Counted from the stretch's first letter, positions 27,652 to 28,572 are shown. The stretch: 64,000 bases of DNA from a bacterium (GCA_021162205.1 JAGGZE010000079.1:29189-93188); one strand, 5' to 3'. Numbers and translations are program-made. Notes: generated by a model from the sequence alone, not told the origin.

Positions 27652-27790
27652 TTGACAATAACTTTACAATGCTCAAGTTATAAACAGATAAAAAAGTTTT
27701 TGTCCGGTGCCGATTTTTGCGGCTCGATATGGTTTGCCCAGCCGGACACCATTTTTTACAGAAAACGGGGTTGGAAAATCCCGTCTTTTT
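27652..27790 (+). ncRNA. Candidate small RNA cassette (copy 2) convergent on and overlapping the 3' end of DUF3800 gene 1
   Basis: TTGACA at 27652 lies about 78 nt upstream of the shared core atatggtttgcccagccgg. Stem gtccgg...ccggac. Plus-strand hairpin acgggg-N9-cccgt followed by T9 at 27764-27792. The -10 box is weak. Confidence 0.3.
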
Positions 27791-28572
27791 TTTTCAGTCC
27801 AGTTCATCATTTCAATTAATGGGCTTTCGTTTGGATAAATACTCAAACCCCTTAAAATACCTTCATTCATGTATATGAACGGTTCGATTTTTTTAAAATG
27901 CTCATACTCTGGATTTCTATCACGGAAAGCTCTATAAATACTGTAAGCGATTATGTCGGCAAGTTGAATTCCATTCGAAAGTTCGCTCCTTGTGAACATT
28001 GGCATTTCAACTATATGTTGTAACCATAATCCCGATGAAGTTCCATCATTTTGAAAATCGAAATGTTGCATTGCGAGTTTTGTATTTGTCTGAACAGATT
28101 CATCATCTACGATTATAATACCTTGATGTTTCGGATGTTTTTTTCTCAGAAAAATTTCGAACATTTCCAAAAGTTCTTCCCATGCTTTTTTATGTAATTT
28201 ACTTCTATCGAATGAATGATGAAGATACCTTTTATCGACAACAACGGCAAAAACTTCTATATGATGATATTCTATTTGGTGATAGTATAAATTTATTAAA
28301 GATTCAATTTCTTTATTTGTAAGTTTTGACAAAAAAGGATGCTTTTTCCTTTCGCTTTCTATTCGTATCCAATTCGATTTGATTTCACATTCTGCTAACG
28401 AGATTGAAAGTCTGTGGTTTGCTATCAGTTCTTTCTTTTTTCTATTTATGGTTTTTTCAAATCCATGCCATTTATTTGCATACAAGGATATTGCCCCATA
28501 AACATATAAATAATCTAAATTACTATATTTTGTGGTCAAATTGCCAGATGCATCGGCATAGAAAAAATACAT
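27673..28572 (-). CDS. DUF3800 family protein (paralog 1)
   Basis: N-terminus MYFFYADASGN matches the DUF3800 MxIFIDESG-like start. C-terminal GIQLADIIAYSIYRAF matches the conserved QLADxIA segment. CpG-poor composition. The roughly 35-aa C-terminal extension relative to paralog 2 reads into the RNA element. Confidence 0.6.
   Translation of the reverse strand: MYFFYADASGNLTTKYSNLDYLYVYGAISLYANKWHGFEKTINRKKKELIANHRLSISLAECEIKSNWIRIESERKKHPFLSKLTNKEIESLINLYYHQIEYHHIEVFAVVVDKRYLHHSFDRSKLHKKAWEELLEMFEIFLRKKHPKHQGIIIVDDESVQTNTKLAMQHFDFQNDGTSSGLWLQHIVEMPMFTRSELSNGIQLADIIAYSIYRAFRDRNPEYEHFKKIEPFIYMNEGILRGLSIYPNESPLIEMMNWTEKKRRDFPTPFSVKNGVRLGKPYRAAKIGTGQKLFYLFIT

What the first reader, a model, noticed from the sequence alone, without database searches (positions are those of the whole stretch)
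27652..28572. Second divergent DUF3800 paralog carries a related 3' element with the same 20-nt core
A second DUF3800 gene lies about 6 kb away, is about 20% identical to the first and has the same orientation. On the opposite strand it has TTGACA (27652) about 78 nt upstream of the core atatggtt(t/c)gcccagcc(g/a)g, the same spacing as in the 34.6-kb copy. The core is followed by a hairpin and T9 at 27764-27792. Finding the RNA-like element at the 3' ends of two highly diverged paralogs argues that it is a functional partner of DUF3800 and not a chance terminator. In this copy the ORF reads about 35 codons into the element, either as a C-terminal extension or a lost stop. The -10 box is poor, so expression is less certain.
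Basis: seen in the sequence. Interest (0 to 1): 0.5.

Follow-up and report, generated by a model that had tools for sequence, protein, structure and literature searches.

The report
Small structured RNA partnered with DUF3800
Next to each of two very different DUF3800 (RNase H2-like) genes lies a small gene for a folded RNA on the opposite strand; it accompanies every relative of these genes examined, so it adds an unlisted member to the known but unexplained group of DUF3800-associated RNAs.

Summary
Window 27673-28572(-) and 34688-35491(-) are both Pfam DUF3800 genes, 18% identical by profile alignment. Each has, on the + strand at its 3' end, a promoter-like site, a roughly 55-nt folded core and a hairpin plus T-run terminator.

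The shared 19-mer is the junction of a three-helix fold (P1 enclosing P2 and P3). The fold shows strong compensatory changes: 98% of cells paired and 8 of 14 pairs changed on both sides in 49 sequences.

In 80 metagenomic loci fetched by protein similarity alone, a covariance model finds the RNA in 77, always antisense at the gene's 3' end. The other 3 loci end at the gene. The 34.6-kb type is a second subtype, with a longer P2. It is kept down to 35% protein identity.

No Rfam 15 family matches, including those DUF3800 motifs of Weinberg 2017 that Rfam holds. I therefore file it as a new member of a known kind.

The "extended C-terminus" comes from a 1-nt difference in the terminator T-run (T9 here, T8 in the closest ortholog). 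It is not conserved.

Function is inferred. Most likely the RNA binds and controls its DUF3800 nuclease. RNAs occur without the gene, but the gene never occurs without the RNA.

The parts
27652..27680 (+). Promoter-like region of RNA copy 1: -35 TTGACA (27652-27657), 17-nt spacer, weak -10 AAGTTA (27675-27680). The predicted start is near 27687.
   Evidence: Read from the sequence. The block CCTTGACAATAACTTTACAAT.CTCAAGTTAT is identical in the closest ortholog L041 while the upstream flank diverges. A subgroup of orthologs has TTGACA-N17-hexamer followed by a leader of about 25 nt. The consensus scan does not call it.
27702..27751 (+). Folded core of RNA copy 1 (subtype 1). P1 27702-27708 pairs with 27741-27747. 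P2 27709-27712 pairs with 27720-27723. Junction TCGATA is 27724-27729. P3 27730-27732 pairs with 27738-27740. The 3' ACCA is 27748-27751.
   Evidence: Model R1 scores 67.2 bits, E 1.1e-19. Covariation is shown.
27765..27794 (+). Intrinsic terminator of RNA copy 1: 8-bp hairpin 27765-27784, then T9 at 27786-27794. It lies inside the 3' end of the DUF3800 reading frame.
   Evidence: 62 of about 77 distinct orthologous loci have a strict hairpin plus T-tract, in most starting 7-18 nt after P1.
27673..28572 (-). DUF3800 gene, subfamily 1, 299 aa as assembled. The conserved part ends near residue 263-272. Residues 273-299 are a frameshift read-through across the RNA gene. With T8 the stop would be TAA at 27756-27758.
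   Evidence: Pfam. Alignment A2. T9 against T8. AlphaFold2 pLDDT 91, with 273-299 below 50. Foldseek top hits are RNase H2/HII. Cluster mates are 271 aa.
34561..34588 (+). Promoter-like site of RNA copy 2: TTGACA, 16 nt, TATTAT.
   Evidence: 11 of 12 consensus matches. TTGACA-N16/17-TAT-rich hexamers are kept in L009, L011, L012 and L013.
34601..34655 (+). Folded core of RNA copy 2 (subtype 2). Outer P1 34601-34603 pairs with 34653-34655. Inner P1 34605-34610 pairs with 34646-34651. P2 34613-34619 pairs with 34623-34629. Junction TTATA is 34630-34634. P3 34635-34637 pairs with 34643-34645.
   Evidence: Fold. In 7 sequences, 94.7% of cells are paired and 8 pairs changed on both sides.
34661..34692 (+). 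Intrinsic terminator of RNA copy 2: 9-bp hairpin 34661-34682, then a T-rich tail. The gene's stop codon (34688-34690) lies in that tail.
34688..35491 (-). DUF3800 gene, subfamily 2, 267 aa from the conserved ATG at 35491. The GTG at 35527 given by the ORF list is not supported by homologs.
   Evidence: Pfam. Alignment A6.

Best explanation
Each element is a small RNA gene of about 95-105 nt. It has its own promoter and intrinsic terminator and is transcribed convergently with a DUF3800 gene.

The RNA folds into a compact three-way junction. A 7-bp closing helix P1 ends in an invariant U-G pair. P2 is a variable hairpin. A conserved single-stranded junction ends in AUA (UYGAUA or KUAUA). P3 is a 3-bp hairpin, UGG-N5-CCA, that abuts the 3' strand of P1.

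Shown here:
- The fold is real, and it is read from the strand opposite the gene.
- Gene and RNA travel together as a two-part cassette that sits in different neighbourhoods in different genomes.
- Two subtypes of the RNA go with two distant DUF3800 subfamilies.

Inferred:
- The RNA acts in trans as the cognate ligand of the RNase H2-like DUF3800 protein, which recognises the conserved junction.
- The complex controls the nuclease. Most probably the RNA keeps it inactive or specific, like an antitoxin.
- The 3' overlap with the mRNA is secondary.

The C-terminal 'extension' in this window is a by-product of a 1-nt difference in the terminator T-run.
For: Structure. In a MAFFT alignment of 49 distinct sequences, 98.1% of cells are paired. 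8 of 14 pairs changed on both sides (69 cells, against at most 11 when partners are slid). No shuffle of 500 reached the observed pairing or covariation score. The retrieval patterns left the covarying positions free. Subtype 2 gives 94.7% paired and 8 pairs with double changes in 7 sequences.

Strand. The U-G pair is invariant in 49 of 49 sequences, and other G-U pairs occur; these would be A-C mismatches on the gene strand. R1 scores 67.2 bits forward and 7.6 bits on the reverse strand. The T-tract follows the hairpin on this strand.

Association. 80 loci were fetched by protein similarity only. 77 have an R1 hit with E at or below 1.6e-5, all antisense at the gene's 3' end. The 3 without a hit end at the gene. 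The RNA is also present in a MAG labelled Coriobacteriia. All six subtype-2 relatives, down to 35% protein identity, keep their RNA.

Mobility of the cassette. Neighbouring genes differ between loci. In the window they are housekeeping genes.

Asymmetry. A search starting from the RNA found 3 RNA cores with no DUF3800 and one with an internally deleted gene. No gene was found without the RNA.

A role for the core rather than the overlap. In subtype 1 the reading frame runs through the terminator, and the stop is usually 2-14 nt from P1. In subtype 2 the frame ends in the T-tail. The overlap is therefore not conserved, whereas the junction is.

Protein. A high-confidence model is most similar to RNase H2/HII. 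This agrees with PMC7736814 and PMC10910872.

Precedent. Eleven other RNA motifs are tied to DUF3800 genes, in either orientation (PMC5737381).
Against: There are no expression data, so the promoter and RNA ends are predictions. In this window the -10 is poor, and only 32 of 75 upstream regions pass a strict sigma-70 pattern.

Binding to the protein was not tested. No solved structure or curated family informs it.

The orientation is strictly antisense in all loci of this class. A purely trans-acting ligand does not require that, so it keeps an antisense role open.

The orphan-RNA asymmetry rests on 3 loci and on two different sampling routes.

Neither gene matches a known defence protein convincingly. 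PADLOC gives nothing for gene 1 and a weak PDC-S51 match for gene 2. Neither the gene family (subfamily-1 alignment) nor the 20-nt core pattern was found in viral contigs.
Confidence: 0.55

Rival explanations
1. The element is a cis-antisense regulator. Because it is transcribed convergently, it base-pairs with the 3' end or 3' UTR of the DUF3800 mRNA. That would trigger degradation or block translation, as 3'-overlapping type I toxin-antitoxin pairs do. On this view the fold mainly stabilises the RNA.
For: The orientation is antisense at the gene's 3' end in every locus. In subtype 1 the terminator hairpin lies inside the reading frame in most orthologs. The gene strand has no good T-tract after the hairpin in high-GC orthologs, so the mRNA probably runs across the RNA gene.
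Against: The overlap with the coding region is not conserved between subtypes. The most conserved bases are unpaired junction bases and short helices kept by compensatory change, which antisense pairing does not require. Other DUF3800 RNA motifs lie on either side and either strand of the gene (PMC5737381). Three RNA cores persist without any target gene.
Confidence: 0.22
2. The RNA is a working part of the enzyme rather than an inhibitor: a scaffold, guide, primer or substrate mimic. For example, it could mimic a tRNA acceptor end, which would direct the RNase H2-like protein to a target.
For: Association is obligate. The 7-bp P1 is followed by a nearly invariant N-Y-C-A, which is NCCA in 25 of 72 sequences. 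TPR-DUF3800 proteins accompany Cas12a3, a tRNA-cleaving effector (PMC13594972). Many RNase H-fold nucleases are RNA-guided (established knowledge).
Against: No variable guide-like segment was seen (not measured directly); in the alignments the non-conserved segments are the P2 and P3 loops, the covarying stem positions and the flanks. ARAGORN finds no tRNA. The YCA is absent from subtype 2. In about 12 loci it doubles as the complement of the TGA stop. The RNA continues into a terminator, so an exposed CCA end would need processing.
Confidence: 0.15
3. There is no RNA gene. The similarity is a shared Rho-independent terminator or 3' UTR, a DNA-level site such as a recombination site or mobile-element end, or chance.
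For: The bare core occurs in unrelated GC-rich coding sequences (14 of 27 genome hits). Hairpin plus T-run terminators are common.
Against: The conserved part lies upstream of the terminator and covaries. G-U pairs fix the strand opposite to the gene. A promoter-like site precedes it. The 14 unrelated hits lack P1/P2 and DUF3800 and score at most 28 bits. No repeat arrays or mobile-element genes flank it.
Confidence: 0.05

Closest known systems
DUF3800-I to DUF3800-XI RNA motifs (Weinberg et al. 2017, PMC5737381; Rfam RF02969, RF02968 and others)
   Same: They are conserved structured RNAs genetically tied to DUF3800 genes. Several are followed by intrinsic terminators, they are not in 5' UTRs, and their function is unknown.
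   Different: No Rfam 15 model matches either window copy or an ortholog, even at E up to 10. The published motifs occur on either side and strand, whereas this class is strictly antisense at the 3' end. [quoted passage not shown] Here two subtypes, tied to subfamilies 18% identical, share one junction core.
Type III toxin-antitoxin systems (ToxIN, CptIN, TenpIN)
   Same: The working model has the same logic: a folded RNA encoded beside a nuclease gene binds and neutralises that protein. Orphan RNA is tolerated and orphan protein is not seen.
   Different: Type III antitoxins are tandem repeats upstream of the toxin on the same strand, and the toxin processes them. Here there is a single-copy RNA, antisense and downstream, with no tandem repeats. 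The protein is RNase H2-like, not ToxN-like.
Type I toxin-antitoxin pairs with 3'-overlapping antisense RNAs (for example Bacillus subtilis txpA/RatA and bsrG/SR4; from my own knowledge)
   Same: Transcription is convergent, and the small RNA overlaps the 3' end of the protein-coding transcript and shares a terminator region.
   Different: Type I toxins are small hydrophobic peptides, whereas DUF3800 is a soluble protein of 260-290 aa. The conserved part of this RNA is a covarying junction outside the overlap.
Type VII retrons (reverse transcriptase plus DUF3800; Mestre et al. 2020, PMC7736814)
   Same: A DUF3800 protein is paired with a structured non-coding nucleic acid in a compact module. 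In retrons that protein is thought to be the effector.
   Different: No reverse transcriptase gene is nearby (and the gene lists). The RNA has no msr/msd-like inverted repeats.

Membership tests
DUF3800-associated structured RNAs (the kind defined by Weinberg 2017) | Conserved secondary structure supported by compensatory changes | tested here: met
   Subtype 1: 98.1% paired, 8 of 14 pairs with double changes, 0 of 500 shuffles reach the score. Subtype 2: 94.7% paired, 8 pairs with double changes.
DUF3800-associated structured RNAs (the kind defined by Weinberg 2017) | Consistent genomic association with genes encoding Pfam PF12686 | tested here: met
   77 of 80 loci retrieved by protein similarity carry it, and the 3 misses are truncated. 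All 6 distinct subtype-2 loci fetched from elsewhere (7 with the window copy) carry it.
Any one of the curated motifs DUF3800-I to XI, drum or skipping-rope (Rfam 15) | Match to the family covariance model | tested here: not met
   No hit at gathering score in the window or in 15 loci. No such family appears even at E up to 10 around three copies. I could confirm only RF02969 and RF02968 as present in Rfam 15 (PMC11701678).
Type III toxin-antitoxin | RNA antitoxin made of tandem direct repeats upstream of the toxin gene on the same strand | tested here: not met
   No tandem array at either RNA locus. The RNA is single-copy, downstream and antisense.
Type III toxin-antitoxin | The RNA binds and inhibits the protein toxin | not testable with these tools
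   This needs binding and toxicity assays.
Type I toxin-antitoxin | Small hydrophobic toxin peptide | tested here: not met
   The protein is 267-299 aa with a globular RNase H2-like fold.
Type I toxin-antitoxin | Antisense RNA overlapping the toxin transcript | tested here: inconclusive
   Subtype 1 overlaps the reading frame by the terminator region. Subtype 2 overlaps it only by the stop codon. The mRNA 3' ends are unknown.
Type VII retron | Adjacent or fused reverse transcriptase | tested here: not met
   The window neighbours are YchF, a YjbQ-like protein, TPR, BioY, asparaginase and Fe-S proteins. No reverse transcriptase appears in the gene lists of related loci.
tRNA or tRNA-like gene | Cloverleaf recognised by a tRNA finder | tested here: not met
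   ARAGORN finds none in the window. Rfam tRNA hits in related loci lie elsewhere.

The most novel reading that the evidence does not exclude
The RNA and its DUF3800 protein form a new type of two-part RNA-protein module. A single-copy RNA with a three-way junction of about 55 nt would be the obligate antitoxin or cofactor of an RNase H2-like nuclease. Its architecture is unlike type I or type III systems. The junction core shared by two subfamilies 18% identical would be the protein-recognition site. If so, this small pair would be a tractable entry point to the unexplained link between DUF3800 and RNA.
Probability: 0.3. Interest if true: 0.75.

Novelty: new member of a known kind. Interest (0 to 1): 0.45.

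Why it matters
DUF3800 proteins appear in retrons and beside Cas12a2/Cas12a3 and type III CRISPR systems. Since 2017 they have been known to travel with at least 11 unrelated structured RNAs, and nobody has explained why.

This class is unusually favourable for study:
- The conserved core is only about 55 nt.
- It accompanies every usable member of its DUF3800 subfamily that I examined.
- It comes in two subtypes that keep the same junction while the proteins have diverged to 18% identity, which points to the bases that matter.
- RNAs occur without genes but genes do not occur without RNAs, and that pattern suggests a concrete, testable model.

There is also a practical warning for annotation. 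C-terminal tails of many database DUF3800 proteins, including the 299-aa protein in this window, are translations of the antisense RNA gene or its terminator.

Tried and rejected
- Rfam 15 at gathering score and at E up to 10 gave only chance hits (sraA, STnc50, L20 leader, suhB), all far below threshold.
- The supplement of Weinberg 2017 is not held, so I could not compare directly with the drawings of DUF3800-II to XI.
- A 2026 preprint that mentions DUF3800 could not be opened.
- A literature search for functional work on drum or skipping-rope RNAs found nothing relevant.
- Model R1, built from subtype 1 only, was used to test whether the two window copies are one family in the model's terms. 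It hits the 34.6-kb copy only locally (P3, 11.7 bits, E 0.19) and its orthologs at 11-14 bits. I therefore treat them as two subtypes, not one alignment.
- A sequence search of solved structures found no relative. NCBIfam gave nothing useful. PADLOC gave nothing for gene 1 and a weak partial PDC-S51 match for gene 2.
- Viral contigs: no relative of the subfamily-1 gene, and no match to the core pattern ATATGGTTYGCCCAGCCRRC.
- I considered the tRNA-like reading (7-bp stem plus NCCA). ARAGORN finds nothing, P3 loops are not T-loop-like, and subtype 2 lacks the YCA. It is kept only as a minor rival.
- I considered a conserved C-terminal extension and rejected it. Read-through into the RNA core occurs in about 8 of 75 distinct loci, with different lengths.
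- My strict terminator scan missed several imperfect hairpins. It also counted two weak spurious model hits (L042 +, second hit in L073). The 62 of 79 is therefore a lower bound on about 77 real loci.

Full report
**What is in the window**

The ORF at 27673-28572(-) and the one at 34688-35527(-) both match Pfam DUF3800, with E 9.4e-16 and 8.9e-14. The true start of the second is the conserved ATG at 35491. BLASTP between them finds nothing significant. Profile-profile comparison shows they are homologous at 18% identity, with 96.9% probability and E 1.3e-10.

Each copy is preceded by TTGACA, 75 and 71 nt upstream. Each is followed by the two best terminator-like hairpins in the 9-kb stretch, 27765-27784 plus T9 and 34661-34682 plus a T-rich tail. 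The promoter at 34561 is near-consensus at 11 of 12. The one at 27652 has a good -35 but a weak -10, AAGTTA, and the scan does not call it. Both regions fold into the same shape.

**It is conserved in orthologs**

The first three subfamily-1 relatives whose contigs I fetched, at 51-61% protein identity, all carry GUCCGGUGCCG-loop-CGGCUCGAUAUGG-N4-CCCAGCCGGAC plus a hairpin. It lies on the strand opposite the gene, at the gene's 3' end.

The 34.6-kb gene has only four close relatives in 5.8 billion clusters. All four loci carry the 34.6-kb type of element with its promoter and terminator. Two further relatives at 35-37% identity also carry it.

**The structure**

The fold is a three-way junction.
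- P1 has 7 bp and ends in a U-G pair. It encloses P2 and P3.
- P2 has 4 bp and a variable loop in subtype 1. In subtype 2 it has 7 bp after a 2-nt linker.
- The junction is UYGAUA (subtype 1) or KUAUA (subtype 2).
- P3 is UGG-N5-CCA and runs directly into the 3' strand of P1.

On a MAFFT alignment of 49 distinct sequences, 98.1% of cells are paired. 8 of 14 pairs changed on both sides, in 69 cells, against at most 11 cells when partners are slid by 1-3 columns. No shuffle of 500 reaches the observed values. P3 switches between U-A and G-C (34 to 15). P1 position 8-55 shows C-G, G-C, U-A and G-U. The patterns used to collect the sequences did not constrain these positions. Subtype 2 has 8 pairs with double changes in 7 sequences.

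The U-G pair is invariant, and other G-U pairs occur. On the gene strand these would be A-C mismatches. The model scores 67.2 bits forward against 7.6 bits reverse. The functional strand is therefore antisense to the gene.

**Association**

I built covariance model R1 from subtype 1 only. I ran it on 80 metagenomic loci that had been fetched purely by protein similarity. It found 77 hits at 26-80 bits, 76 of them at 48 bits or more. All were on the strand opposite the gene and at its 3' end. The three loci without a hit (L051, L110, L116) end at or within about 60 nt of the gene's end. A MAG labelled Coriobacteriia also has the RNA.

The converse test was a scan of 185,579 species genomes for CTCGATATGGNNNNCCCAGCCGG, which gave 27 hits.
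- 13 hits have the full fold. Twelve are Planctomycetota and one is an unclassified bacterium.
- 14 hits are GC-rich coding sequences without P1/P2, without a DUF3800 neighbour, and with R1 scores of 11-28 bits.

So the bare core is not unique, but the folded element is specific. Of the 13 folded copies:
- eight have an apparently complete DUF3800 next to them
- L031's gene is cut by the locus end
- L035's gene is cut by the contig end
- L040's gene has an internal deletion
- three (L015, L032, L039) have no gene remnant and no terminator

Flanking genes differ from locus to locus. In the window they are ordinary genes: YchF, a YjbQ-like protein, TPR, BioY, asparaginase and Fe-S proteins. The gene and RNA therefore behave as a self-contained cassette.

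**The two window copies are subtypes, not duplicates**

R1 detects the 34.6-kb copy only through P3, at 11.7 bits and E 0.19. It scores that copy's relatives at 11-14 bits. The shared features are the inner P1 (GGU/GCC), the AUA of the junction, P3, the overall architecture and the position relative to the gene. P2, the linker and the outer P1 differ.

**The 'extended C-terminus'**

The closest ortholog, L041, is nearly identical across the element but has T8 where the window has T9. With T8 the frame ends at a TAA (27756-27758), giving about 272 aa. The cluster mates are 271 aa. With T9 the frame shifts and runs on to 27673.

Homologs align only to about residue 263. AlphaFold2 gives pLDDT 91 overall but below 50 for residues 273-299.

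Across about 75 distinct loci, most stop codons lie 2-14 nt beyond P1, so the last 10-15 codons encode the RNA's terminator hairpin (for example ...KRRASSPTAGP*). About 8 loci read into the RNA core, to different extents. The peptide similarity among such tails (GTGQK) is the RNA gene read backwards. The extension is therefore an accident of a homopolymer, either real or an assembly error. It is not a conserved feature.

**Comparison with what is known**

Weinberg et al. 2017 described DUF3800-I and ten further DUF3800-associated motifs. Several have terminators, they lie on either side and strand of the gene, and the authors offered no functional hypothesis (PMC5737381).

DUF3800 is reported as RNase H-like in retron type VII and beside Cas12a2/a3 (PMC7736814, PMC10910872, PMC13594972). 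My model agrees: the top Foldseek hits are RNase H2/HII, E about 1e-3, probability 1.0, though TM-scores are only 0.37-0.53.

No Rfam 15 family matches this RNA at any threshold I tried. It is therefore a further, uncatalogued member of the known kind. I could not check the original alignments.

**Mechanism**

The following is shown:
- the element is a structured RNA gene
- its linkage to DUF3800 is obligate
- the junction is conserved across subtypes

The following is inferred. The RNA is the protein's ligand and controls it. The antitoxin-like version is favoured for three reasons. RNAs survive without genes but not the reverse. The cassette moves between contexts. The coding overlap is not conserved while the junction is.

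The strict antisense placement keeps a cis-antisense role alive (confidence 0.22). A cofactor or guide role remains possible (0.15). The system is not type III, because there are no repeats. It is not type I, because the toxin is not a small peptide. It is not a retron, because there is no reverse transcriptase.

**Verdict**

Interest is moderate. It gives a compact, two-subtype model system for an open question, plus an annotation caveat.

Noticed in passing
window 27748-27751; family-1 loci generally: The four bases after P1 are N-Y-C-A, with C in 71 of 72 and A in 71 of 72 sequences. They read NCCA in 25 of 72, including ACCA in this window. A 7-bp stem followed by NCCA resembles a tRNA acceptor end. 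In about 12 loci the TCA is the complement of the gene's TGA stop. Subtype 2 lacks it.
   Followed up: partly
L015 4169-4224, L032 5782-5837, L039 6719-6774; L040 7074-7819: Three Planctomycetota genomes carry a high-scoring RNA core (66-75 bits) with no DUF3800 remnant and no terminator. A fourth has a DUF3800 with residues 124-226 deleted. No gene of this subfamily was seen without the RNA.
   Followed up: partly
window 27786-27794: A T9 homopolymer (T8 in the closest ortholog) causes the frameshift that yields the deposited 299-aa protein MCD6594886.1. Cluster mates are 271 aa. It could be an assembly error.
   Followed up: yes
database proteins P0041, P0068, P0077, P0094, P0104: Their C-terminal tails (for example ...GANPIEPTSGTGQK...) are translations of the antisense RNA gene. 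Their apparent conservation reflects the RNA, not the protein.
   Followed up: partly
window 35491-35527: The ORF list starts the 34.6-kb gene at GTG 35527. All homologs start at the ATG at 35491 (MFFLFLDESGD), giving 267 aa.
   Followed up: yes
window 34440-34467 (-) and 34561-34588 (+): Two near-consensus promoter-like sites (11 of 12 each) lie back to back in the intergenic region. One faces the TPR gene (33135-34415, -) and the other faces the RNA.
   Followed up: no
L124 4871-4928 (-): A MAG labelled Coriobacteriia (2.8-Mb contig) carries the subtype-1 cassette (R1 62 bits). If the binning is right, the class is not confined to Planctomycetota.
   Followed up: partly
upstream regions of family-1 RNAs: There are two promoter geometries. 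In many lineages TTGACA-N17-TAnnnT ends 6-7 nt before P1, so transcription would start at the helix. In a subgroup that includes this window the promoter lies about 25 nt further upstream, which gives a leader.
   Followed up: partly
whole window: The window is 40.5% GC and comes from a MAG labelled only 'bacterium' (96.8-kb contig). It has no tRNA genes and no Rfam hit at gathering score in 64 kb.
   Followed up: no
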